This document shows positions 2,711 through 63,496 of a stretch of DNA of 64,000 nucleotides, piece by piece (position 1 is the first letter of the stretch; each line of letters starts with the position of its first letter). A model generated the notes under the pieces. It had not been told where the DNA came from. It searched no databases and saw nothing but the letters and a program-made list of their open reading frames with translations. The DNA comes from a virus: positions 26,049-90,048 of the IMG/VR virus record IMGVR_UViG_3300028794_000198, one strand, 5' to 3'. The position numbers were made by a program, and so were the translations under genes.

Positions 2711-3337
2711 TCAGAGCGAGGCGACCAAACCGGCCGCATCAGGCAGCACGGCAAGACTCAACGGCGTACCCGGAACCCGGTCACCGACGATGATGTAGCG
2801 GCGATCCGAGTACACCTCGAACGCCAACTCCCCCTTGCGGATACGGCGGCCTGCCGGGACGGCGCCGCGGAACCACAGGTGCAGGCCGGTACCGGACCGG
2901 CCGCGTTCCATGTACGTCGGCGGCAACCGGTCCACGATCGCCTGCGCCCACGGAAGGACGCTTCCATCCTCGACCGCATGGTCCAGGTCGACGACCATGA
3001 TGCCGTCGCCGGCCGTGAGGACGAAGCCGATGCCGTCGCCCGTCTTGGATCCGGCGACTGCGGCGTAGTCCGACCAGGACGACGGGTCCTTCACCGAGGC
3101 GAAACGGCCGTCGGTGCGCAGCGGCACCTTGTCCTTGTGCCGCACCCAGCGGGGACGTGAGGTCAGCTCGGCGGGAATACGGGCCTGCTGCTCGGCAGCA
3201 AGGGCTGCGTCACGCTCACGCTTGCGGGCCCGAGCTGCGAGGACGCGATGCGAGTTGGAGCAGTAGCGGCGGTCCGACCGGTGCATGACCGGCAGCTCTC
3301 CCCCGCAGTGCGCGCACCTCTGAAGCGTCTCTGGCAT
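2711..3337 (-). CDS. Zn-finger plus primase-polymerase (AEP/prim-pol) domain protein
   Basis: CAHCG...YCS N-terminus; GIGFVL, VVDLDH, GRSGTGLHLW and EVYS..RY AEP motifs; start placed at ATG 3337. Confidence 0.75.
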   Translation of the reverse strand: MPETLQRCAHCGGELPVMHRSDRRYCSNSHRVLAARARKRERDAALAAEQQARIPAELTSRPRWVRHKDKVPLRTDGRFASVKDPSSWSDYAAVAGSKTGDGIGFVLTAGDGIMVVDLDHAVEDGSVLPWAQAIVDRLPPTYMERGRSGTGLHLWFRGAVPAGRRIRKGELAFEVYSDRRYIIVGDRVPGTPLSLAVLPDAAGLVASL

Positions 3338-3487
3338 GCATCCAGGATAGCGCCGCCTGTTAACGACTATAGGCATTTGAGCTGCACTGTTACCGGCCTG
3401 CGACATAGCTCAGCCACCCGAGCGGACTGGACCACTTAGGCATACTCGCAGGTCAGGGGCCTTGGAAACCCGGGGGGGATGTCAGGT

Positions 3488-3536
3488 GCTATACGGGCCC
3501 GATCCTAAAGGATCATGGGTGGGGGGTACGCCCCCT
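3488..3536. other. Candidate cos/packaging site
   Basis: Intergenic between HNH and terS; minus strand CGGGCCCGTATAGC next to hairpins GATCCT-aa-AGGATC and GGGGG-N5-CCCCC. Confidence 0.4.
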
Positions 3537-3562
3537 ATGTCCGTTTAGGGTTGGATCAAGGT

Positions 3563-3742
3563 TCAGAGATCATCCGGATCAGCCTCGTGCGTCCAGGCGT
3601 GGGCGATCACGTCCGTGAGGTCAGGCTCAACGCTCATGATCAGCATGTTGCCTTCGCGACCTCTCGACGTGATCACTGTCGTGATCGGTACTGCGACGTC
3701 GCACTCGGGACAGTGGACCTGGACCGCACCGACCGCTGCCAC
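3563..3742 (-). CDS. Small CxxC hypothetical protein
   Basis: GTG with GGGGAGG RBS; HCPECD. Confidence 0.6.
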   Translation of the reverse strand: MAAVGAVQVHCPECDVAVPITTVITSRGREGNMLIMSVEPDLTDVIAHAWTHEADPDDL

Positions 3743-3768
3743 GCTCGCCTCCCCGGTGGCCGACGTAC

Positions 3769-3945
3769 CTACCGGCTGGCCTGCTCCCTGCCGTCGAGGG
3801 AGTGGTGCACCAGCAGCCAGCCCGTCGACCCGTCCTCCTGGGTGGCCGGCCTGACCTCGGGCCCGCACGCGCAGTCGGGCTCGCTGGTGCTGGTGTCGTG
3901 GTCGACCAGGTCGTGCTGTGGTGTGACGTGAAGGGTGTTGGTCAC
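3769..3945 (-). CDS. Small His/Cys hypothetical phage protein
   Basis: GTGA overlap; DCACGP...VHHSLDGRE. Confidence 0.7.
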   Translation of the reverse strand: MTNTLHVTPQHDLVDHDTSTSEPDCACGPEVRPATQEDGSTGWLLVHHSLDGREQASR

Positions 3946-4205
3946 CGCCGCTTGGCCCCGCCTCGCAGTGCCTTGGCGTGAGCGCTCGTGCTCATGCCTG
4001 TCGCCGCGATATGCCTCAGCTGGCAGTATCCCTTGGCTCGCGCCCCAAGATGCTTTGACAGGAGTCGGTTGCATCGGGACCAGTCGCCTGGTGTACCCCA
4101 GCGGATCTTGGCCGCCCCGACCCCGTGGGTCCAGTAGTTGCGCAGGGTCTGGGCGTTGCCGCCGCCTTTGCGTCCGCCGTTGCCTTGCCTGCCGCGTGCC
4201 ATCAC
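3942..4205 (-). CDS. Hypothetical phage protein (YW..G.GAAKIRWGTPGD..RC domain)
   Basis: Coupled ORF; motif recalled from actinophage head-region proteins. Confidence 0.7.
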   Translation of the reverse strand: MMARGRQGNGGRKGGGNAQTLRNYWTHGVGAAKIRWGTPGDWSRCNRLLSKHLGARAKGYCQLRHIAATGMSTSAHAKALRGGAKRR

Positions 4206-28241: not shown

Positions 28242-28519
28242 CAGACCGTCTCCGATCCGAGCGGCACCGGCGTGAAGCCGACCTCGCCGTCCACCTTGTC
28301 CGGGAAGTCAGGGCCCGCGACCTGGTGCGATCGCATCCGGTAAGGGCGCTGCAGCCGCCACACCATCGGCGTGTAGTCGAAGGCCACGGTGTAACCGTCG
28401 GCGGTCGGCCAGTCCAGTTCGGAGGCGGCGCGGACTGCGTCGGTCGGGTCGGCGGCGCGAACCCACTCGGTGTAGACGCCGGACGGGCGGGTCGGCCAGG
28501 TCACGCTGTACTTCTTCAT
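28241..28519 (-). CDS. Hypothetical protein
   Basis: GAGGAG RBS. Confidence 0.65.
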   Translation of the reverse strand: MKKYSVTWPTRPSGVYTEWVRAADPTDAVRAASELDWPTADGYTVAFDYTPMVWRLQRPYRMRSHQVAGPDFPDKVDGEVGFTPVPLGSETV

Positions 28520-28554
28520 GCGGTGCTCCTCTCAGGGGTGGGGTCGGGGGCCGC

Positions 28555-28728
28555 TCAGCCGCCGATTTCCTTCAGGTAGGCCTTGGCCTCGCTCTTCGAG
28601 ACCTCCAGGCAGGTGGCGACGATCGTTGCGTCGGCGTCGGGGTTGACCTCCCGGATCGCCTCGATGCGGCGGATGTGCTCGTCGTGCCGGACCGGGTTCT
28701 GCGGCACGTTGCGGTTGAACAGGCCCAT
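28555..28728 (-). CDS. Small HTH-like protein (not in ORF track)
   Basis: MGLFNRN...IVATCLEVSKSEAKAYL; GAGGA RBS. Confidence 0.6.
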   Translation of the reverse strand: MGLFNRNVPQNPVRHDEHIRRIEAIREVNPDADATIVATCLEVSKSEAKAYLKEIGG

Positions 28729-28740
28729 ATCGGGTTCCTC

Positions 28741-29037
28741 TCAGGCGGGCGCGCCGGTGCGCGCCTTGTGGAATTCGCGGATGAACTCGTCGGTGAGCCC
28801 GGCGCCGAGTGCGGCCCCGACCGGGCCGATCCCGGTCACGTCAGCGGCCCACAGCTCCAGCCACGCCATACGGGTGGCGGCGTAGTTGATGACCGGGCGC
28901 ATGCAGCGGATCGCGAACACGACCGCCCCGAGCGCGCACATGACGGTCAGGGCGAGGGCCCGCAGCGCCCACCGGCCCGCGAACCGGGCAGCGAGATGCA
29001 GCCGACCGGGCTTCGCGGTGATCAGGTACGGGCGCAT
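28741..29037 (-). CDS. Hypothetical membrane protein
   Basis: ATG at 29037 with GAGGAG RBS. Confidence 0.6.
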   Translation of the reverse strand: MRPYLITAKPGRLHLAARFAGRWALRALALTVMCALGAVVFAIRCMRPVINYAATRMAWLELWAADVTGIGPVGAALGAGLTDEFIREFHKARTGAPA

Positions 29038-29054
29038 GCGGACTCCTCTCGGGG

Positions 29055-29567
29055 TCAGGCGATGGTGTGGATGGGTGCGCGCCGGGCCACACGAACGGGT
29101 CCGGCGGCGGGGTTGAGGTGGGCGGCGAGGCGCTCCAGTTCGCAGGCCTGGGCTTCGCCGTCGTCCCACTGCGCGTCGTACTGCTCCAGCTCGGCGGCCG
29201 GGAGCCGGGACAAGGCTTCTTCGGTGCGGAACTTTTCGACCCGCCGCACGCCCGGTCGCAGCATCTGCGCGGCGTGCACGAGTTCGTGAATGACGGTCTT
29301 GTCGACCTCGGACGCGTCGTAGAGGTGGGCTTGGGCGTTGACGACGGCGAGGACCCGGTCGAGGCCGTACAAGGTGCAGCCGTACAGGCCGTCGTCGTCA
29401 CCGGCGAGGAGGCGGGTGAAGTAGGTGCCGGTGACGAGGAGTTCCACCCCGAGCAGGCGCACACCCATCTCGCTCTCGACGAGCGCGGCGGCCTGGTCGG
29501 CAATGGCGCACACCCGGTCCAGGACTGGGCGTCGGGCCGGGCCGATGGCGTAGGCGTTGACCTGCAC
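29055..29567 (-). CDS. Putative zinc metallopeptidase
   Basis: IHELVHAAQ (HExxH) and downstream EAQA. Confidence 0.7.
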   Translation of the reverse strand: MQVNAYAIGPARRPVLDRVCAIADQAAALVESEMGVRLLGVELLVTGTYFTRLLAGDDDGLYGCTLYGLDRVLAVVNAQAHLYDASEVDKTVIHELVHAAQMLRPGVRRVEKFRTEEALSRLPAAELEQYDAQWDDGEAQACELERLAAHLNPAAGPVRVARRAPIHTIA

Positions 29568-54060: not shown

Positions 54061-54882
54061 CTACTGGGTGGGCGGTTGTGCGGTCTCGGGCCAGCCGCCG
54101 ACGGGCTCAAGCTCGGCCTCGACCGGGACGTCTTCCACGTCGGGGTCCGCAGCTTCGAGGACCCCGGCTGTGGAGCCGGCGGGCAGCGGCATGTCGGTGC
54201 GCTCGATGACGGCGCTGCGCTTCTCTGCGGAGGTGGGCACCCACTTGCCGAGGCGGCGGGCTGCGGTCTTCAGCCACATCGACTCTTCGTCGGTGCGCCA
54301 CGGCGAGTACTCACTGTCGGCGCCGTCGGACTTGGCCTTAGCCCGGTTGATGTGGGTGCGGCTGAGGACGACGACCTTGGAGGTCGCGCCGCCCTGCATG
54401 ACGGCGTAGGCGTACACGCCGACGAGATCGCCGCGCTCCCCGAACCAGTCGACGGTGTGAACGGGCCGTTCGTGGAGGCCGGGCACGTAGTTGAACTGGT
54501 CGCCCGCTCGGACGACTTCGACGACGACGGACGATGAGGCGCCCGCGTTGTAGATGAGTTCGACGATGCCCTGGTAGCCGACGATGCCCTGCACTTCGAG
54601 CTGGCCCTTGCGCTTGATGGGGCGCAGGTAGAACTGCTCGGTGCCGGGTTCGAGGCCGAGGCGGGCGGCGGTCATGAGGGCGCTCATGAGGCTGCCCGGG
54701 TTGGCCTGGGCGGCCTGGGCGAGCTTCGGGTTCTGGCGGAGGACGCCGACGGCGAGGCGGGCGAACGTGTCGACCCTGACGTGGCTGGCGGCGACGAGGG
54801 CGAGTTCGGGCTTGTACTGCTCAATGACGGAGGCGGGGCCTTCGTCGCGCTTCTCGATGGCGTTGCCGATGGGGCTGTTCAT
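54061..54882 (-). CDS. recT: RecT-family recombinase
   Basis: AARLGLEP...YL.P...GYQG..EL...SPW....M..KT..RRL.KW.P.S.E. Confidence 0.95.
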   Translation of the reverse strand: MNSPIGNAIEKRDEGPASVIEQYKPELALVAASHVRVDTFARLAVGVLRQNPKLAQAAQANPGSLMSALMTAARLGLEPGTEQFYLRPIKRKGQLEVQGIVGYQGIVELIYNAGASSSVVVEVVRAGDQFNYVPGLHERPVHTVDWFGERGDLVGVYAYAVMQGGATSKVVVLSRTHINRAKAKSDGADSEYSPWRTDEESMWLKTAARRLGKWVPTSAEKRSAVIERTDMPLPAGSTAGVLEAADPDVEDVPVEAELEPVGGWPETAQPPTQ

Positions 54883-55823
54883 GCTGCTTCCTTCTGCTGG
54901 TACGGGCTGAGGGACTTGGTGGTGCCGTCCGCTTTGGGGATGCGGTAGGCGATGCGGCGTTTGCCGACGACGGCCCGCTTGCCGGTGCCGATGTGGTCGA
55001 GGACGACGCCCTTCGCGGCGGCGAGTTCGACGGCGGCGGCCTTAGATGCGGCCTGCGCGTTTTGGTAGCGGTCCGCGTCGACGACAGGGATTTCGACGTC
55101 GACGTCTTCGAAGCCGTCGGGCTGAACCCGGATCGTCTGGTAGGTGTCGTCGGCGCCGTCGATCGGCGGCCGAACACCGTCACGGACTTCGTCGAGGAAC
55201 TTGACGGCGGCGTCGCGGAGGATCTGCGCTTCGGCCTCGTCGTAGTCGACGGTGTATTCGCGGTAGTCGTGGCCGGAGATGAGGACCGCGAACTGGGTGC
55301 GGCGCAGGCCGAGCGTGTCCATCTGCCAGATGACCTGGCAGCGGTACCAGAGCGGCACCCCGTCATCGGCGCCGGACGGGCCCCAGTCGTCTCCGAACGG
55401 GGACGTCTTCACCTCCAGCAGTTCCTCGGCCTGGTCCGACACCTCGAACTCGCCTGCGGGCTGCGGGTAGATGAGCCGGTCGGGGGTGGCGCGCTGCCAT
55501 TCCCGCTCCCGGTTGAACCAGGTGCCAGCCGGGGCGGCGAGTCGGCCCGGGTGCTCGTCCTCCCACTTCTGCGCGACCGGGTCTTCGAGCCGGCTCCCCC
55601 ACTCGATCCCCGACGTCATCTCGAACGGGGCGACGGCCAGGCCCGACTTCTTGTGCCACAGCGTGAAGCGCGACATCCACGGCGACAGGCCGACCACAGC
55701 GGCGATCTCGGTGGCGGTGATGGTGAGTCCGGCGCGGGCCGCATCCCACGCCTCTGTGCCGGGCGTGAGGTGCCCGATGAGGACGCCGTCAGGGGCGGGA
55801 TAGGGGTGTTGTGTGGTGCTCAC
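54879..55823 (-). CDS. YqaJ-like viral recombinase exonuclease
   Basis: W...R..ITATEIAAVVGLSPW, ATPDR, LEVKT, Y.CQV.WQM. Confidence 0.93.
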   Translation of the reverse strand: MSTTQHPYPAPDGVLIGHLTPGTEAWDAARAGLTITATEIAAVVGLSPWMSRFTLWHKKSGLAVAPFEMTSGIEWGSRLEDPVAQKWEDEHPGRLAAPAGTWFNREREWQRATPDRLIYPQPAGEFEVSDQAEELLEVKTSPFGDDWGPSGADDGVPLWYRCQVIWQMDTLGLRRTQFAVLISGHDYREYTVDYDEAEAQILRDAAVKFLDEVRDGVRPPIDGADDTYQTIRVQPDGFEDVDVEIPVVDADRYQNAQAASKAAAVELAAAKGVVLDHIGTGKRAVVGKRRIAYRIPKADGTTKSLSPYQQKEAA

Positions 55824-55993
55824 TTCTGGTGCTCCTGTTCGCTTCTGAGCTGCGTGTTCGGCGTGAAATGGGTGTCGAATGCCGGGCCTCGCCGCCCGCG
55901 ACCGGGGGGTGGTTGGGGCGGCGAGGCCTCGGCTGGCGTCCGGAGCGGCTTGGGGGAAGCGCGCTCAACGGGCGCCGTCTGTGGGGTTGTTGG

Positions 55994-57190
55994 TCAGGCG
56001 GTGGCGTCAGCCGTGGCGGTCTCGGCGGGCTGCGGCTTGATGGCCTTCCACTCGCTGGCTTCGGCGTCGAACGTGACGTGCGGGTTGTCGTCGACGCGGA
56101 AGCCGATCCCGGCGTCCTTCGCGTCGTTCAGCGCGAGCGCCAACCGGACCGCCCACTTGCGGGGCTCCTCGGCGTACTGCTTGGCGAGGCGGGCTTCGTA
56201 GTCGTCGTTCCACTGCTTGGGGTTGAAGCCGGACTGTTCGGCCATGTCGTAGGCCCACTCGCCGAGTTCGCCGGAGTCGAGCTGTTCGGCGGTGTCCTCG
56301 ACGACGGCGCGGGCGGCGCGCGGGTCGACCTGGTGGAGGGCGTCGAGGTAGCGGTAGGCCATCCAGTCGGAGACGCCGGAGCGGATGTGCGCGAACCAGG
56401 CGTCCTGGTCGTCGTCGAAGGACGTGTTGTAGACGTTCGACGTCGAGTCGAGGACCCCCTTGAGCAGGTTGGCGGCGGTCTCGTCGATGCTGCGGGTGGC
56501 CCACAAGCGGGACGGCTCCGGGAGCGGCAGGCTGGCCATGTCGACGTCGGCGGCCCCGGCGGCCAACGTCCACAGCCACAGGCTGTGTGCGGAGTCGAAG
56601 GTCTGCTCCTTGGTCGGGCCGATGCTGCCGCCACCGGACGGCATCTGTGCGCCGATGAAGTCCTCGCCGAAGAACAGGACGGCCTTCCGGTCGGCGGTGA
56701 TGCGGGTGCGGAGGCTCTGCTCGGCGGCCGACCACTTGCGGAAGAGGTCGGAGTTGAGGGCCGGGAACGGTTCGCCGTCGACGGTCTGGGCGGCGATGGT
56801 GCGGAGCAGGCCGCGCCAGTCGGGGAACTCCAGGCTGAGGCTGACGGCGACGTTGAGGTCGGAGAGCGGGCCATCGAAGACCAGCCGGGCTTCCTCGGTG
56901 GCGCTGATGGTGATGTAGCTGGCGCCCTTCATCGCACCGACCCACTCGCGGAGGGCGGGCACGATGTCGCCGGGGATGGTGGCCGCCCACGGCTCCTGGT
57001 TCTGGTCGCCGCTGTCGAGGCGGAAGCGGGCGGCGGCGATCGTGAACCGATCCGTGGCGACGGCGTACAGGTACTGGCTGTCGACGTCGAGGCGGATGCC
57101 GTACAGGGGCTCGAAGCCGTCGTGGCCCATGTGGGCGGCCGTCTTGTCGAGGAGGAGCTTCAGCTGATGGGCGTTGATCGTGACGGACAC
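55994..57190 (-). CDS. DNA polymerase III beta-clamp-like protein with C-terminal extension
   Basis: L.GIRL...AVATDRF, FPDWRGL, F.G.QMP. Confidence 0.7.
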   Translation of the reverse strand: MSVTINAHQLKLLLDKTAAHMGHDGFEPLYGIRLDVDSQYLYAVATDRFTIAAARFRLDSGDQNQEPWAATIPGDIVPALREWVGAMKGASYITISATEEARLVFDGPLSDLNVAVSLSLEFPDWRGLLRTIAAQTVDGEPFPALNSDLFRKWSAAEQSLRTRITADRKAVLFFGEDFIGAQMPSGGGSIGPTKEQTFDSAHSLWLWTLAAGAADVDMASLPLPEPSRLWATRSIDETAANLLKGVLDSTSNVYNTSFDDDQDAWFAHIRSGVSDWMAYRYLDALHQVDPRAARAVVEDTAEQLDSGELGEWAYDMAEQSGFNPKQWNDDYEARLAKQYAEEPRKWAVRLALALNDAKDAGIGFRVDDNPHVTFDAEASEWKAIKPQPAETATADATA

Positions 57191-57295
57191 GTCTTCTCCT
57201 GAGAGAGTGGTGGTGGACTCCCGCCGACTTCGCCTCGGCGGGGTTCTTGCGTTGGGCGCCGGCTGGCCGGGAGGGTGCACCGGCCAGCCGGACGT

Positions 57296-57817
57296 TCAGT
57301 GGGTGGTGGCCGGGTCCGGCTCGACGACGGGCACGGGCGCGGTGTCGTCTTCGCTCCGCGCCCAAGCTGGCGGCACACGCCCGGGGTCGGTGACGGCGGC
57401 GGTCGGCCCGACACCGAGGGCGTCCCACAGCGTCTGCACGTAGATCGGCCCGGTCGCCTGGTCCTCGACGGCGCTGGTGTCGCGCACCATCGGCGGCACG
57501 GTGACCCGGTTGGCGTTGTCTTCTGCGGCGATCTGGGCGCCGAAGCGGGCCCGCAGGGCGAGGGCCTCATCCCGCCATCCGTCGCGGTCGGCGGCGAGGT
57601 CTTCGAGGTCGGCCTGCTGCTGGATGACCAGTTCCTCGGCCGCGCCCTGCTTGGCCTTCGTCTCGGCGAGTTCCTGGCGGAGGATCATGAACGCGTCGTC
57701 TGACCCGGCGACGATGGTGAGCAGGCGCCGGTTCTCGTCGCGGAGTTCGGCCACCTTGTCGACGGCCCGGCGGCTGCCGTTGCCGCGAAGTGCGGGAATC
57801 AGGTCGGTGAGGGTCAC
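57296..57817 (-). CDS. Coiled-coil protein
   Basis: Heptad pattern; coupled. Confidence 0.65.
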   Translation of the reverse strand: MTLTDLIPALRGNGSRRAVDKVAELRDENRRLLTIVAGSDDAFMILRQELAETKAKQGAAEELVIQQQADLEDLAADRDGWRDEALALRARFGAQIAAEDNANRVTVPPMVRDTSAVEDQATGPIYVQTLWDALGVGPTAAVTDPGRVPPAWARSEDDTAPVPVVEPDPATTH

Positions 57818-58032
57818 TGCTGCTCCAGTCCGGTGCGGTCGATGTATCCGGCGGCCTCGCTGTCGGCGAAGTCCCGGGCGGTGGCTTCGGCGCGGCTGAG
57901 TTCGGTGGCCGCGGCGAGGACCGCTTCCAGCTCGCGGATATGGGCGTCTAGGCCGCGGATCGCATGCCGGGCCATCGCGTTGACGAAGCCGGCGGTCGGC
58001 GACCGGTACGGGGATTCGGCGGGGGCGGTCAC
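57814..58032 (-). CDS. Hypothetical protein
   Basis: GTGA overlap. Confidence 0.55.
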   Translation of the reverse strand: MTAPAESPYRSPTAGFVNAMARHAIRGLDAHIRELEAVLAAATELSRAEATARDFADSEAAGYIDRTGLEQQ

Positions 58033-58141
58033 TGCTCCCCCTCGTCGAGTTCGGCGGCGGCGCGCTGTGCGGCGTTGATGCGGGCGTCGCGGGCTGCTGC
58101 CCACAGCAGGAGCGCGGCGGCGGCGAGGCCTACGGCGATGC

Positions 58142-58462
58142 TCACGACGTCACCGCCTTGCCTGCGGCCCCGTGCAGCGCGGCCAGCACCTCGGCCTGCG
58201 TGCGCCCGGCCTTCCGCTCCCAGTCGCCGGCCCACTCGCATTCGAGGTGCAGGCAGAGCAGGTCCCAGGCGGCGAGCGTGACCGCCTCCGCCTTCACCCC
58301 GCCCTTGCCGGGCGTGTAGCCGACCGCCCGGTCGATGGCACCCATGAGCGGGTTGCGGAGCGGATGCCACTTCTCCCGGGAGAGGAGGTTGGCGGCGGCG
58401 ATCAGCGCGGTGGCTGCGCGGGTGACGTCGGTGGCGCGCGGGCGGGTCTTCAGGGCGGTCAT
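58142..58462 (-). CDS. Hypothetical protein (DUF6197-like)
   Basis: W....GRTQAEVLAAL. Confidence 0.6.
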   Translation of the reverse strand: MTALKTRPRATDVTRAATALIAAANLLSREKWHPLRNPLMGAIDRAVGYTPGKGGVKAEAVTLAAWDLLCLHLECEWAGDWERKAGRTQAEVLAALHGAAGKAVTS

Positions 58463-59986: not shown

Positions 59987-60222
59987 GCCGCACCACCGAG
60001 CGTGATGCCGAGGCGGCGGGCGAACTCCACGAACGGCGGGTGGTCTTCGGCGCGGGCGGCGAGAGTGCCGGCCTCGATCAGGCTGGCCACGTGAATCACG
60101 TCGATCTCGACGTGCGAGACACCCGCCTCGTCCGTATAGGGGATGGTGTTGATGCCGAGCTCGGCACACAGGTGCTTGATCACGGCGGTGGTGTCGTCCG
60201 ACGCGGGGGTCTGGTCGCTCAT
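59983..60222 (-). CDS. Hypothetical protein
   Basis: ATGA overlap with the RAMP gene stop. Confidence 0.6.
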   Translation of the reverse strand: MSDQTPASDDTTAVIKHLCAELGINTIPYTDEAGVSHVEIDVIHVASLIEAGTLAARAEDHPPFVEFARRLGITLGGAA

Positions 60223-60890
60223 GCGGTGGCCTCCCACTTGATGACCTCGTACCTGCCGAAGCCCTGCGAGCGGGAAGCGCCGACGCCCTGCTGTTCGCCG
60301 GTGAGCCAGAGCATGGCCCACTCTTCGTCGGTGAACGCGTAGTCGGAGATGACCGTGAAGTCGAACTCGGCGGTCTCGATGAACTCCGTGTACTGGATGC
60401 CGGTTTGGCCGGTGCGCGGGTTCTTCGGGAAGGACTGGAGGACGCCGGTGGGCTCGGTGACGCCGAGGTGGAGCTTGTCCTCGACGACCATGATGTGTTC
60501 GGCGACGAAGCCTTGGACGCCCTTGTTGGTGGAGCCCCAGCGGGACTTCAGCTTGTCGACGGAGCGGGCGACGGACGCGGCTTCCTTGATCGCGGCCTTC
60601 AACTGGCGGCCTTCGATGTACAAGCCGTCCTCGTCGCGACGGAAGCCGTTGAGGTGCTTGTTGGTGTCGACGAGCTTCGCGGCCTCGTCGGCGGTGACGC
60701 CTCGGTCGACCATGGTCTGGGCGACCATCTCGCGGATCAGGTCGTCCTTGTCGGCGAGTTTGGTTCGCAGCCAGCCCTCGGCGACCTTCGGGTCAGTCGG
60801 CGTGCCGCCTGCGATGTTCTTCACGCGGATGGTGCCGTGGAAGCGGTGGGGCCACGCCTTGTCGGTGAAGCTGGCGAAGATGCTGGTCAT
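60219..60890 (-). CDS. Stand-alone Cas7-group RAMP-like protein
   Basis: LYIEGRQLKAAIKEAA (cf. RAMP P.IPGSSLKG..R helix), putative thumb hairpin, C-terminal Gly-rich loop GVGASRSQGFGRYEV; AAAGGA RBS. Confidence 0.8.
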   Translation of the reverse strand: MTSIFASFTDKAWPHRFHGTIRVKNIAGGTPTDPKVAEGWLRTKLADKDDLIREMVAQTMVDRGVTADEAAKLVDTNKHLNGFRRDEDGLYIEGRQLKAAIKEAASVARSVDKLKSRWGSTNKGVQGFVAEHIMVVEDKLHLGVTEPTGVLQSFPKNPRTGQTGIQYTEFIETAEFDFTVISDYAFTDEEWAMLWLTGEQQGVGASRSQGFGRYEVIKWEATA

Positions 60891-60919
60891 GTGGTGAGTT
60901 CCTTTCGGTGACCTGGGCG

Positions 60920-61642
60920 GTCGTGTGGGCTGCGGCGGAGTGGGCTGAGTTGGAATGGGTAGTCGGCTAGGCCTGGCCTGCGGAGGGTTGGCAAGTCGTC
61001 ATGGGACGGTGGGCGCCGAGGCGAGACGGGAAGAGCAGTCGTTGCGGGCGGGCTCGGGTCGAGGCGGATCGAGATGGCATGTCGGTTGGAGCGAGTCGTG
61101 ATGTGTGGCGAGGTGGCGAGCCGGACCGGGTAGTCGGTCGGAGCTGGGCCGGGGTGGCTGGTCCAGGCCGGGGCGGGGGTGTCGGAGGGCTTGGCTCGGA
61201 CTGTGCGGCGACGAGCCGGATTGGGAAGTCGGCACGGGATGGGGTGGGTGGCCGGGCCTCGTGTCGGGCAGTCGGTACGGCGTGGTGAGGGTGGGCTTGG
61301 CACGTCGACGCGAGTCAGAGCGGGCTGGTTGGTGAAGCGACGGATAGTCGGCATGGGTAGCGCTGAACTGCGCGGGGCAGGAGGGGGCAGAAAAGTCGGC
61401 TGGGTGGGGCGGCAGCGGGAAGCCCTGCGTAGGGGCGCGTAGTCGACGAGGGGCGGGAAGTAACGGCCCGGGTTGATCCGTCGGCATGGGGTGTGGAGGC
61501 TGGCGCGGTGGCGAAAAGAAAAGTCGGCAAGAGTTGGGATGAGGTGCGGTCGCGTGGCGTCGGGAAGTCGTTCCGAGTGGGGTGGAAACGCCTGGGCGTG
61601 AATAGTCGAGGAGGTGTGAGGCGCGGTGTGTCGGCCGGTGCT
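60920..61642 (-). repeat. Pentamer-phased array of 17 units, putative guide-RNA array
   Basis: Plus strand [GTC (GNNNN)6-10] x17; 134 of 135 blocks start with G; transcribed strand assumed from the operon. Confidence 0.9.
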
Positions 61643-61647
61643 CTTCG

Positions 61648-62208
61648 TCATGCCGCTGCTCGCGGCATCGCTCGCGGTCCCTGCTGGGTGACGGAGCGGT
61701 ACATCTCCAGGTACTGCGCCTCTGTGAAGACCTCGCCGACCAACTGGCCGCCGATCTTCTTGCCGACCGCCCGGTGGAACGCCGCCTCCAACTTCGAGAT
61801 CCGCGCCGCGTCCTCGTACTTCGAGGCGACGAACCGGCAGTCGTCGGCGGTCATGTTCGCCACCGTCCGACGGGTGTTGTCCTCGTCGACCACGTACTCG
61901 GCGGCGAAGGGGTGCAACGCCGTGACGTCACCACCGGCGAAACTGCGGGCCGCCTCGGCGAACGCCCTGCGCGGGGCGCCGATCCGGGCCGCCTGCCGCT
62001 TGCTGTTCGACCTGCGGGCCACGACGTCCGCGAGGATCACCGCCGCCTTCAAGTCCAGCCACCCGGCCAGCAGTTCCGGGTCCTGCGCCCTCAGGTGCTC
62101 CACGAGGTCGGCGGCAACCATCGACGCCACGTAGTCACCTGCGGGAATCGCACCCTCGACCGCCTCGGCCATCTCGGTGATGAAGTCGCGGTCTGTCACA
62201 CTGGACAC
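61648..62208 (-). CDS. Hypothetical protein directly upstream of the array
   Basis: AGGAGG RBS, GTG at 62208; helical. Confidence 0.75.
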   Translation of the reverse strand: MSSVTDRDFITEMAEAVEGAIPAGDYVASMVAADLVEHLRAQDPELLAGWLDLKAAVILADVVARRSNSKRQAARIGAPRRAFAEAARSFAGGDVTALHPFAAEYVVDEDNTRRTVANMTADDCRFVASKYEDAARISKLEAAFHRAVGKKIGGQLVGEVFTEAQYLEMYRSVTQQGPRAMPRAAA

Positions 62209-62288
62209 GCGGCCCCTCCTTTCTTGTGGTGAGTTCAGGTGGGTCGCTTCGGCCGGTCGCCTCTGGTGGCCGGCCTTCTCCTTGCCGG

Positions 62289-62552
62289 TCATGCGGCGGC
62301 GCGGGCCGGCTTGTTGAACGGCTGGACCGTGAACTGCTCCGTGATCGCCCGGATGTTGAGCCCGGAGAACCAGATCTTGTTGCCGTTGTTCACGTGGGGG
62401 ATTTCGCGGGCGAACGCCTTCAGGGCGAGCTGGCGAGCGCTGAAGGGGAGCCAGAGCGCAGCCTCAGTGGGCTGGTAGTGGAAGAGCTCGCCCTCGGGAC
62501 TGCTGGGTGCGGGAAGGTTCTCCCGGACCGGGGGAAGCTTGCGGGGGGCCAC
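62289..62552 (-). CDS. Excisionase-like HTH protein
   Basis: Y.PTEAA.WL..S...L.....REIPH...GNKIWF. Confidence 0.7.
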   Translation of the reverse strand: MAPRKLPPVRENLPAPSSPEGELFHYQPTEAALWLPFSARQLALKAFAREIPHVNNGNKIWFSGLNIRAITEQFTVQPFNKPARAAA

Positions 62553-62554
62553 GG

Positions 62555-62755
62555 TTACTCCTGGTGGGTGATGTCGTTGGGGGTGACACCCAGTGCGTCC
62601 GCGACTTTCTCGATGTTCTTGTCGCTCAGGCCGACGAGTCCGCGTTCGACTCGGGAGAGGTGCGACTTGTGGATCCCCGTCTTGACGGAGAGCGTGGGCA
62701 GGCTCATTTTTAGAGCCCTCCTTCTGAAGCGGATAGCGCTGGAGTGCGGTCTCAC
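62555..62755 (-). CDS. Cro-like XRE HTH regulator
   Basis: MSL..LS.KTGIHKSHLSRVERG...VADALGV. Confidence 0.9.
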   Translation of the reverse strand: MRPHSSAIRFRRRALKMSLPTLSVKTGIHKSHLSRVERGLVGLSDKNIEKVADALGVTPNDITHQE

Positions 62756-62791: not shown

Positions 62792-62971
62792 GCCTTGCGA
62801 GTGCCTTGATAGCACTTTTTTAGTGCCCACGGTGGGCCATCTGTCGCTCACGTGGCGTTACGCGTAACACGCCCCATGCAACCCAAACGCTCTTTTTGTG
62901 CGCTCAGTCGCAGGTCAAAAGGCCTGAACCCGGCTAGGTGGTTGCATGGAGGTAGGGCAAGATGGGGAGAC

Positions 62972-63496
62972 ATGGAGTCAGAGCGAGACTGGGAACGCCT
63001 GGGTGCGGCGTTCGCCGAAGCGCGCAAAGCGGCCGACCTCACGCAGGTCGAGGTCGCCACACGCCTGTCTGTGACCCGCACACCCATCCAGGCCATCGAG
63101 CGGGGCAAGCAGCCCAATGGCAATCCCTACGGCAAGGTCACCAGCACTATGCGGGCCTACGCTCGACTCGTCGGCTGGACCGAGGACTCCCCTGCCCGAA
63201 TCCTGCGCGGCGAGGAGCCAGAACCGGCCACCCAGCCCGTTTCCGAGTGGGATGCCGACCCTAAGTCGGACCTGCCGGCGGCCGTCGACCGGGAACTCCG
63301 CTCCGGCAAGACCCTCGACCACGCCGTCGTGAATCTCGGCGGCGAGAACGACGACGACACCCGGTTGATCGTTCTCCTCAAGGGGTCCGAGGATCTCAGC
63401 GAAGAGCAACTCGACGAGCTCTGGCAGAAGTGGCGGAAGATGCGCCGCCAGTTGCAGGCAATCCCCGGCGAATCAGACACCCCACAAGAATCCTGA
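62972..63496 (+). CDS. CI-like XRE repressor
   Basis: LTQVEVA.RLSVTRTPIQAIERG; divergent from cro. Confidence 0.88.
   Translation: MESERDWERLGAAFAEARKAADLTQVEVATRLSVTRTPIQAIERGKQPNGNPYGKVTSTMRAYARLVGWTEDSPARILRGEEPEPATQPVSEWDADPKSDLPAAVDRELRSGKTLDHAVVNLGGENDDDTRLIVLLKGSEDLSEEQLDELWQKWRKMRRQLQAIPGESDTPQES

What the first reader, a model, noticed from the sequence alone, without database searches (positions are those of the whole stretch)
60219..62208. Candidate non-CRISPR RNA-guided system: lone Cas7/RAMP gene plus pentamer-coded array in the phage early operon
Seen: a 223-aa protein with RAMP hallmarks (YIEGRQLKAAIKEAA helix; terminal G-rich loop GVGASRSQGFGRYEV) lies directly downstream of a 720-bp array with strict 5-nt phasing, a few genes after cro. 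No cas1/2/3/5/6/10 and no CRISPR direct repeats are in the window. Known: Cas7-group RAMPs polymerise along guide RNA with a fixed number of nucleotides per subunit (6 in type I/III). Inference: this protein oligomerises on RNAs cut from the array, one subunit per pentamer, gripping the constant base(s) and displaying the variable ones. It could act as a nuclease-free programmable repressor against rival phages, host genes or host CRISPR. I recall a report of phage RAMP plus pentameric GGY/NN repeat systems ('VIPR') but cannot verify it here. This array's grammar is more degenerate and has CGAC anchors, so it may be a distinct variant.
Basis: partly seen in the sequence, partly recalled or inferred. 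Interest (0 to 1): 0.97.

Follow-up and report, generated by a model that had tools for sequence, protein, structure and literature searches.

The report
Actinophage VIPR system, C-rich guide array
A Streptomyces-type prophage carries a VIPR system, a CRISPR-related RNA-guided DNA silencer first described in 2026: one small Cas7-like protein, a partner gene and about 16 short guides, one of which spells the catalytic motif of a rival element's integrase. The kind is known; this branch writes its guides in a different, C-based code.

Summary
Window 60219-60890(-) encodes a 223-aa protein with a confident Cas7/Csm3 (RAMP) fold. The 757 bp upstream (60891-61647) hold about 16 units built from 5-nt steps.

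Each pentamer has three constrained and two hypervariable positions.

The published 1-nt-skip rule finds targets. Guide 61350-61394 matches an integrase motif (xYLLRHGHK) in 7 of 401 Streptomyces genomes, against 0 for the control, and only wobble positions vary. Relatives' guides hit rival RAMP genes.

It differs from the studied type II system in five ways:
- There is one invariant base per pentamer, not GGY.
- Guides have 4-10 pentamers.
- Guides are joined by a 3-nt GAC with no tail.
- A conserved helical partner gene precedes the array.
- In about 50 relatives the C-rich strand is always the gene's sense strand. The guides are therefore probably S-Y-C/NN RNAs (my odds 0.7, no RNA data).

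Only one of 16 window guides has a firm target.

This scan has already noted the same clade on other DNA. I rate it a new variant of a known kind, of moderate interest.

The parts
60219..60890 (-). vipr-like gene: a 223-aa minimal RAMP (Cas7-like) protein. It has helix-1 (GRQLKAAIKEAA) and a G-loop (GVGASRSQGFGRY); R207 is invariant.
   Evidence: AF2 gives pLDDT 91 and pTM 0.86. Foldseek on PDB puts type VII Cas7 and Csm3 on top at E 2e-9, with 193 hits at E<=1e-3. VIA-align gives Csm3 Z 10.7. There are 1477 homologs. hhalign against SUSP1 Vipr aligns helix-1 and the G-loop at E 8.7e-4, probability 23%.
60891..61647 (-). Guide array: about 16 units holding 120 pentamers. On the sense (-) strand each unit reads GAC-(NN-S-Y-C)k. 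On the + strand it reads (G-R-S-N-N)k-GTC, with k=5-9.
   Evidence: Period-5 signal. Unit parse and position frequencies. The same architecture appears in about 50 homologous loci.
61350..61394 (-). A 9-pentamer guide. Its NN letters, written on the + strand, are AT TA CT CT CG CA GG CA AA. Under the 1-nt-skip rule they spell the codons of the integrase motif MYLLRHGHK.
   Evidence: Two exact IMG/VR hits lie in frame in integrase ORFs. Seven hits with at most 1 mismatch occur in 401 Streptomyces genomes, against 0 for the backward control, and all lie in 454-481 aa integrase ORFs.
61648..62208 (-). Conserved partner gene, a candidate vap: 187 aa from a GTG start with an AAGGAGG ribosome-binding site. 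It is mostly helical and has no recognisable fold.
   Evidence: It is found upstream of the array, on the same strand, in 37 of 54 loci. AF2 gives pLDDT 86. Pfam and PHROGs find nothing. Foldseek gives E>3 and VIA gives Z<=5.
62251..62275 (.). GC-rich hairpin in the gap between the small ORF and the partner gene. On the + strand it scores as terminator-like. Its function is open.
   Evidence: The same hairpin is present in close relative L001.
62555..62755 (-). cro-like HTH gene at the head of the early operon that contains the module (context).
   Evidence: Pfam HTH_3, E 6e-10.
62852..63496 (+). Divergent cI-like HTH repressor gene (context).
   Evidence: Pfam HTH_31, E 2e-9.

Best explanation
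This is a VIPR-family RNA-guided DNA-binding system in the early operon of a temperate actinophage.

Proposed mechanism.
1. The operon cro - small ORF - partner gene - array - vipr is read as one minus-strand transcript.
2. The 757-nt array RNA yields about 16 short guides of 28-48 nt, bounded by GAC joints.
3. Vipr protomers bind one pentamer each. They hold the three constrained bases and display the two variable ones.
4. The filament reads double-stranded DNA by pairing NN, skipping one base, pairing NN, and so on. A guide therefore spells codon positions 1-2 of a conserved protein motif and ignores wobble positions.
5. Binding blocks transcription of genes of rival mobile elements. Here that is at least a tyrosine integrase family; in relatives, rival vipr genes.

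Sub-claim (my odds 0.7). The guide is the C-rich sense strand, with the code S-Y-C/NN. Only the pyrimidine pocket of canonical Vipr is retained.

Status of the steps. Shown here: the fold, the array grammar, the conserved three-part module, the co-orientation and the in-silico targets. Inferred by homology with SUSP1 Vipr: co-transcription, processing, filament assembly and repression.
For: Protein.
- Cas7/Csm3 fold with a high-confidence model.
- Helix-1 and the G-loop align with SUSP1 Vipr, which is PDB 36pp.

Array grammar.
- Across 2236 pentamers there is one invariant position (97% before the parse fixed it) and two semi-constrained positions. The two hypervariable positions carry 0.02 bit each. 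This is the 3+2 logic of VIPR.

Conservation.
- Arrays flank the gene in nearly all of about 54 loci, down to 27% protein identity.
- The order partner - array - vipr holds in 37 of 54 loci.

Skip rule.
- Perfect matches at skip 0/1/2/3 number 5/33/4/2, against 1/7/10/5 for shuffled guides.
- A 16/16 match and a 14/14 match fall in rival vipr genes with the skipped base at codon position 3.

Integrase guide.
- 7 hits against 0 for the control in 401 genomes. All lie at xYLLRHGHK, and only skip positions vary. PHROG calls the ORFs integrase at E 6e-25 and 3e-32.
- The phage's own integrase lacks the site.

Sense-strand reading.
- The C-rich strand is the gene's strand for arrays both upstream and downstream of the gene.
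- A textbook sense-strand terminator follows directly after the downstream array in L055, and a perfect hairpin follows the array in phage Mae-JY09.
- The vrRNAs of SUSP1 are co-oriented with its vipr gene.
- The SUSP1 readers of G1 and G2 (H17, D177, W178) are not kept, while the Y3-pocket Arg is kept as invariant R207.
- The published motifs GGY, GAC, CAC and WGT have a pyrimidine at position 3, and TGH allows one (H = A/C/T).
Against: - There are no RNA data for this locus. The only RNA-library hits are unstranded contigs of a relative about 90% identical.
- Only 1 of 16 window guides has a firm target. Three others searched in IMG/VR gave chance-level or unconvincing hits.
- The skip-1 excess comes mostly from two guides that hit one conserved gene many times. 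Counted by unique guides, it is not enriched.
- Sequence homology to SUSP1 Vipr is weak: hhalign probability 23%, and no HMM hit in the SUSP1 genome.
- Two points fit the G-rich strand instead. Read on that strand, the invariant base is a G at position 1, and the conserved end of each unit (GGGWA-GTC) lies 3', like the canonical tail.
- No promoters were detected on either strand.
Confidence: 0.82

Rival explanations
1. It is the same VIPR-type system, but the guides are the G-rich strand, antisense to vipr. They would read G-R-S/NN and end in a short conserved 3' end, GGGWA-GUC. This would be a degenerate form of the canonical GGY/NN vrRNA, possibly the 'NNNNG' repeat type named in the first VIPR preprint.
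For: - On this strand the invariant base is a G at position 1, followed mostly by a purine G. This resembles GGY/NN.
- The conserved pentamer lies at the 3' end of each unit, where canonical vrRNAs carry their tail.
- The preprint lists NNNGG, YNNNG and NNNNG variants.
- A terminator-like hairpin on the + strand lies at 62251-62275.
Against: - It needs a dedicated antisense promoter inside or next to vipr in every locus, and a second one wherever arrays lie on both sides. None was detected.
- All adjacent arrays with a period-5 signal, upstream or downstream, share the gene's strand.
- A sense-strand terminator closes the L055 array.
- Position 3 would be mostly G, although the Arg of the purine-excluding pocket is invariant. 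The G1/G2-reading residues are lost.
Confidence: 0.25
2. The array is a cis-acting leader, not a set of trans guides. The RAMP protein coats the C-rich leader RNA of its own operon, for example to shield it from Rho termination or to autoregulate. The target matches would then be coincidence.
For: - The array lies inside the operon directly before vipr.
- C-rich, G-poor untranslated RNA is the classic Rho-loading signature (established knowledge).
- In L055 one guide matches its own vipr gene.
Against: - The NN positions are hypervariable, and 14 of 16 units differ between phages whose Vipr is 98% identical. A pure scaffold has no need for that.
- Whole units match conserved protein motifs end to end with wobble skipping: 7 hits against 0 for the control.
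- Arrays also lie downstream of vipr.
Confidence: 0.05
3. The period-5 tract is not an RNA element at all. It would be a coding region (ORF 60887-61651, 254 aa, with ATGA overlaps at both ends) or a DNA-level repeat.
For: A stop-free sense frame spans 99% of the array. It overlaps the partner gene's stop codon and the vipr start codon.
Against: - Shuffling the NN letters gives the same open fraction (median 0.92 against 0.98; only 1 of 35 arrays at p<=0.05). The open frame is therefore a by-product of the C-rich scaffold.
- A period of 5 with 3-nt slips does not fit codons.
- The sequence is unrelated between close relatives.
Confidence: 0.02

Closest known systems
Type II VIPR of Escherichia phage SUSP1 and a Pseudomonas fulva prophage: Vipr + vap1 + vrRNAs (bioRxiv 10.64898/2026.04.26.720920 and 10.64898/2026.04.26.720927; PDB 36pp)
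   Same: - A lone minimal RAMP with a helix-1 / G-loop layout.
- Phage-borne, with no cas genes.
- A 5-nt repeat with 3 constrained and 2 hypervariable positions.
- Arrays on the gene's strand.
- Targets found with the 1-nt-skip rule, in frame with the skip at wobble positions, on rival mobile elements.
   Different: - The fixed letters are one invariant C plus two soft positions (S-Y-C; G-R-S on the other strand), not GGY.
- Guides have 4-10 pentamers, not 9-16.
- There is no structured 3' tail. Units abut through a 3-nt GAC.
- About 16 guides lie between a helical partner gene and vipr.
- The protein carries an extra three-helix insert (residues 34-76). It lacks the SUSP1 residues that read G1 and G2.
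- Sequence similarity is only at the hhalign E 1e-3 level.
Divergent VIPR arrays with non-canonical repeat units: 21 clusters, e.g. GAC/NN, CAC/NN, WGT/NN, TGH/NN (bioRxiv 10.64898/2026.10.21.760802). Also the 'NNNNG' repeats and 'staggered arrays' of the first VIPR preprint.
   Same: - A period-5 array next to a Vipr-like fold with a non-GGY fixed trinucleotide.
- Position 3 is a pyrimidine in the sense reading.
- Units abut without long tails.
   Different: I could read only the text, not the figures or data tables. I therefore cannot tell whether S-Y-C/NN, the 3-nt GAC joint or this actinobacterial clade is among the published clusters or types. No C-rich or sense/antisense statement appears in the texts I searched.
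VIPR guide against a satellite's excision recombinase, and solo vrRNAs against relatives' vipr genes (bioRxiv 10.64898/2026.10.15.759431)
   Same: The predicted targets here are an integrase active-site motif and, in relatives, conserved vipr codons. The codon-periodic matching is the same.
   Different: Those cases were shown experimentally in E. coli phage SUSP1. Here the targets are in-silico predictions for a Streptomyces-type provirus.
CRISPR-Cas Cas7 backbone proteins (Csm3 of type III-A, Cas7 of type VII)
   Same: Best structural matches: Z 10.7 and 10.4, Foldseek E 2e-9. They share the RRM core, thumb and G-loop, and they polymerise along guide RNA.
   Different: Here there are no CRISPR repeats, no Cas1 and no other RAMPs. 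The period is 5 nt rather than 6 nt, and the guide is gapped rather than contiguous.

Membership tests
VIPR (Vipr + vrRNA) | Vipr protein: a small single-RRM RAMP with helix-1, thumb and glycine-rich loop | tested here: met
   AF2 pLDDT 91. Cas7/Csm3 are the top matches by Foldseek and VIA-align. The G-loop GVGASRSQGFGRY precedes the last strand.
VIPR (Vipr + vrRNA) | Sequence homology to an experimentally studied Vipr (SUSP1, PDB 36pp) | tested here: inconclusive
   The profile A1 finds nothing in the SUSP1 genome. hhalign gives E 8.7e-4 at probability 23%, with helix-1 and the G-loop in register. The 36pp structure is not in the fold libraries available here.
VIPR (Vipr + vrRNA) | Adjacent non-CRISPR array with a 5-nt period: three constrained plus two hypervariable positions | tested here: met
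   The variable positions N4 and N5 carry 0.02 bit each. The feature is conserved in about 50 loci.
VIPR (Vipr + vrRNA) | Fixed trinucleotide is GGY | tested here: not met
   The + strand reads G(1.0) R(G .64, A .19) S(G .55, C .22). The sense strand reads S-Y-C. Non-GGY variants are in print.
VIPR (Vipr + vrRNA) | vrRNA of about 100 nt: 9-16 repeats plus a conserved structured 3' tail (type II) | tested here: not met
   Units have 4-10 pentamers and are closed by a 3-nt GTC/GAC in 397 of 504 units. There is no tail.
VIPR (Vipr + vrRNA) | Targets obey the 1-nt-skip rule, with the skipped base on the codon wobble position | tested here: met
   Skip 1 gives 33 perfect matches, against 2-5 for the other skips and 7 for shuffled guides. 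The in-frame hits are described. All of this is in silico.
VIPR (Vipr + vrRNA) | Virus- or provirus-borne, without cas genes or CRISPR repeats | tested here: met
   The record is an IMG/VR provirus. 41 relatives lie on viral contigs. There is no Cas1 and no CRISPR-like repeat.
VIPR (Vipr + vrRNA) | Accessory vap gene of one of the six described families | not testable with these tools
   A conserved 187-aa helical partner is present in 37 of 54 loci. No vap sequences are available for comparison, and no fold match was found.
VIPR (Vipr + vrRNA) | Array RNAs are expressed, processed and co-purify with Vipr; the RNP represses transcription | not testable with these tools
   Only unstranded metatranscriptome contigs of a relative were found.
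CRISPR-Cas class 1 effector (Cas7/Csm3 backbone) | CRISPR repeat-spacer array and companion cas genes (Cas5/Cas6/large subunit/Cas1-2) | tested here: not met
   No direct-repeat array. No Cas1. The neighbouring genes are phage early genes.

The most novel reading that the evidence does not exclude
This actinophage clade uses a chemically different guide code. The functional RNAs are the C-rich sense strand. Each pentamer is held by a single invariant cytosine (S-Y-C/NN), sitting in the retained pyrimidine pocket, after the two guanine-reading contacts of canonical Vipr were lost. Guides are only 28-48 nt, are tail-less, and are released from a head-to-tail array at GAC joints. If so, a Vipr filament needs just one fixed base in five, and the smallest known programmable DNA-binding guides are shorter than those described so far.
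Probability: 0.6. Interest if true: 0.6.

Novelty: new variant of a known kind. Interest (0 to 1): 0.42.

Why it matters
VIPR is a months-old class, and experiments so far cover mainly E. coli and Pseudomonas type II systems. This locus belongs to a large family: 1477 homologs and 605 clusters at 50% identity, in Streptomyces, Actinomadura, Nocardiopsis, soil viromes and even a Microcystis phage. It keeps the gapped 3+2 logic but relaxes the fixed letters to one base.

It matters for three reasons:
- It shows how far the Vipr-RNA code can drift.
- It offers very short, tail-less guides as possible tools.
- It gives a concrete, testable target pair: guide 61350-61394 against the YLLRHGHK integrase site in Streptomyces genetics.

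Two further observations point to an arms race like that of CRISPR spacers, but with no known way of acquiring new guides:
- Guides turn over rapidly between phages that are 98% identical.
- Guides are aimed at rival vipr genes, and one possible synonymous escape codon was seen.

Tried and rejected
- Pfam and PHROGs on the RAMP gene and the partner gene: no hits.
- Profile search of the SUSP1 genome with A1: nothing.
- Profile against PDB sequences: only a borderline Csm4 G-loop match, E 0.45.
- RNA evidence: one search found two root-metatranscriptome runs that hold 5% of the sampled words. When laid on the window, they turned out to be contigs of a relative about 90% identical. One 1708-nt contig spans partner - array - vipr. 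It carries no strand, start or end information and DNA carry-over is not excluded, so it does not count as support.
- Targets for other window guides:
  - 61136-61180 gave one hit, in a contig of GC 0.55 outside any long ORF, which I treat as chance.
  - 61483-61522 gave 28 hits, nearly all in low-GC contigs, which I treat as chance for an AT-rich pattern.
  - 61231-61270 gave one in-frame hit in a GC 0.69 contig, in an unannotated 329-aa ORF, which is not convincing.
  - No window guide matches its own 90-kb provirus or the 424 kb of related loci above shuffled level.
  - No other relative's guide hits the integrase loci.
- The reversed-order control of the integrase pattern also gave one IMG/VR hit. 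The two IMG/VR hits alone are therefore not significant. The case rests on the genus search with its built-in control.
- The array as a coding ORF: rejected by the NN-shuffle null.
- Promoter scan: none on either strand. The terminator count was at chance level.
- Rfam and Tandem Repeats Finder: nothing relevant.
- Partner protein fold: no match.
- Supplementary tables of the VIPR preprint are not held, so the type (I-VII) could not be assigned.
Full report
OBSERVATION

The window end is the early region of a high-GC temperate phage. The source is an IMG/VR provirus record of 90 kb.

Gene order:
- A cI-like HTH gene, 62852-63496(+), faces the minus-strand operon.
- The operon runs: cro-like HTH 62555-62755, a small ORF 62289-62552, a 187-aa gene 61648-62208, 757 bp of non-coding DNA at 60891-61647, then the 223-aa ORF 60219-60890. 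Further early genes follow.

The non-coding stretch has the strongest period-5 signal of the whole 64 kb, about 5 sd above the window mean. One correction is needed: the phase is not strict.

PROTEIN

- Pfam and PHROGs are blank.
- The family is large: 1477 homologs in the 90%-identity collection and 605 representatives at 50% identity, all named hypothetical. They come from Streptomyces, Streptacidiphilus, Actinomadura, Nocardiopsis, soil viromes and a Microcystis phage.
- With a 65-sequence alignment, AlphaFold gives pLDDT 91 and pTM 0.86.
- Foldseek against the PDB returns Cas7 of type VII and Csm3 of type III-A first, at E 2e-9, with 193 matches at E<=1e-3.
- An independent all-against-all aligner agrees, with Csm3 at Z 10.7 and type VII Cas7 at Z 10.4.
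- BFVD returns other viral RAMP-like proteins.

The RAMP call is therefore confirmed.

ARRAY

Written on the + strand, each unit is (G-R-S-N-N)k followed by GTC. On the gene's sense strand it is GAC-(N-N-S-Y-C)k.

Over 504 units and 2236 internal pentamers from 35 arrays:
- The anchor base is invariant (97% before the parse fixed it).
- Position 2 is G .64 / A .19, and position 3 is G .55 / C .22.
- Positions 4 and 5 carry 0.02 bit each.
- 397 of 504 units close with GTC.
- CGAC-to-CGAC spacings are 5k+3 in 236 of 507 cases.
- The pentamer next to the joint is conserved: GGGWA on the + strand, TWCCC on the sense strand.

The window itself has 16 units with 120 pentamers, k=5-9. No Rfam family, classical tandem repeat or CRISPR repeat is present.

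RELATIVES

- In 13 genome loci and 41 viral contigs, nearly every copy of the gene has such an array next to it. This holds down to 27% protein identity.
- The 187-aa upstream gene is conserved in 37 of 54 loci, always in the order partner - array - RAMP gene on one strand. The other neighbours are not conserved.
- The partner is a confident helical model with no fold match.
- Arrays turn over fast. The window and L001 share 98% (RAMP) and 92% (partner) identity, but only 2 of 16 guides.

LITERATURE

Four 2026 preprints cover it:
- 10.64898/2026.04.26.720920 describes Vipr, a minimal RAMP of phages. It also describes vrRNAs made of GGY/NN pentamers plus a 3' tail, the 1-nt-skip reading of dsDNA, repression of rival phages, seven types, alternative repeats (NNNGG, YNNNG, NNNNG) and staggered arrays.
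- 10.64898/2026.04.26.720927 gives the filament structures and names the residues that read G1, G2 and Y3.
- 10.64898/2026.10.15.759431 shows a guide acting against a satellite recombinase and solo guides acting against relatives' vipr genes.
- 10.64898/2026.10.21.760802 reports 21 clusters with non-GGY trinucleotides.

I located the SUSP1 locus: vipr at 28474-29061(-), with YNNGG arrays on the same strand on both sides. Its product is PDB 36pp. A profile comparison with my family is weak (E 8.7e-4, probability 23%) but puts helix-1 and the G-loop in register.

TARGETS

All-against-all test. I tested the skip rule with 321 guides against 424 kb of related loci. Perfect matches numbered 5/33/4/2 for skips 0/1/2/3, against 1/7/10/5 for guides with shuffled order.

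The excess comes mainly from two guides:
- An 8-pentamer guide (16/16) matches codons 35-42 of the RAMP gene in 11 loci.
- A 7-pentamer guide (14/14) matches the G-loop codons in about 20 loci.

In both, the skipped base falls on codon position 3. By unique guides the enrichment is not significant. I treat this as supportive, not decisive.

Integrase guide. For the window, guide 61350-61394 gives two exact IMG/VR hits, both in frame in integrase ORFs of GC-rich contigs. A reversed-order control also gave one hit. The decisive test was therefore the search of 401 Streptomyces genomes: 7 hits with at most one mismatch, against 0 for the built-in backward control. All 7 lie at xYLLRHGHK in 454-481 aa integrase ORFs. 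Nearly all variation falls at the skipped positions; each of the six imperfect hits has a single NN mismatch. The phage's own integrase is of another type and lacks the site. Other window guides gave nothing convincing.

WHICH STRAND

There are no usable RNA data.

For the sense, C-rich strand:
- Every adjacent array shares the gene's strand, whether upstream or downstream. The experimentally mapped SUSP1 vrRNAs do the same.
- vipr has no room for its own promoter, so the C-rich RNA must be made whenever vipr is expressed.
- In L055 the downstream array is followed at once by a strong sense-strand terminator. In phage Mae-JY09 it is followed by a perfect hairpin.
- The residues that read G1 and G2 in SUSP1 are not kept. 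The Arg of the pyrimidine pocket is one of only three invariant residues.
- The published variants GGY, GAC, CAC and WGT keep a pyrimidine at position 3, and TGH allows one. This fits S-Y-C but not G-R-S.

For the G-rich strand:
- The invariant G is at position 1.
- The conserved end of each unit is at the 3' side.
- A repeat type named 'NNNNG' is in print.

I put the sense strand at 0.7.

VERDICT

It departs from the characterised type II system in motif, guide length, absence of a tail, array layout, partner gene and probably strand chemistry. I therefore file it as a new variant of a known kind. One caveat applies: the figures and tables of the preprints, which I could not read, may already list this clade.

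Earlier notes of this scan describe the same clade on other DNA with the same reading. They are not independent evidence. They do mean that this is not a first sighting.

Noticed in passing
window 60252-60254 (- strand), codon 213 of the RAMP gene: The Arg in QGFGRYE is encoded by AGG here, while 48 of 50 relatives use CGN. This synonymous first-position change is the single mismatch that spoils a 14/14 match to an anti-RAMP guide carried by relative L055. That guide matches L001 and L019 perfectly. It is possibly an escape from a wobble-skipping guide.
   Followed up: partly
L055:3717-3751 against L055:3661-3680: The first guide of the downstream array matches the G-loop codons of its own RAMP gene, about 40 nt upstream, as well as those of about 20 other loci. 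This is self-targeting, which the first VIPR preprint did not see. It could be autoregulation or simply tolerated.
   Followed up: no
window 60891-61647 against L001:3401-4000: Between phages whose RAMP gene is 98% identical and whose partner gene is 92% identical, only 2 of 16 guides share their variable letters. Guides turn over far faster than the genes, and no acquisition machinery is known.
   Followed up: partly
window 62251-62275: A GC-rich hairpin (11 pairs) sits between the small ORF and the partner gene. It scores as terminator-like on the + strand only, and it is also present in L001. Its role is unknown: it could stop antisense transcripts, or act as an attenuator or processing site.
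   Followed up: no
window 60887-61651 (- strand): A 254-aa stop-free frame spans the whole array, with ATGA overlaps at both ends. A shuffle test shows that the C-rich scaffold alone keeps the sense frames open. Ribosomes may nevertheless read through the array.
   Followed up: yes
L057:5851-6700: A G-rich segment with a period-5 signal lies 2.1 kb downstream of the RAMP gene. It is the only opposite-polarity tract seen, and it may belong to a second, inverted system.
   Followed up: no
L014 (Microcystis phage Mae-JY09, PP395641.1) 3001-4160: A cultured cyanophage carries a 32%-identical RAMP gene, annotated as hypothetical. A C-rich, CGAC-anchored array and a perfect hairpin follow it at the right end of the genome. 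This is a possible laboratory model for the clade.
   Followed up: partly
window 54879-58462 (- strand): Downstream early genes include a YqaJ-like exonuclease (54879-55823), a weak beta-clamp-like protein (55994-57160) and a DUF6197 protein (58142-58462).
   Followed up: no
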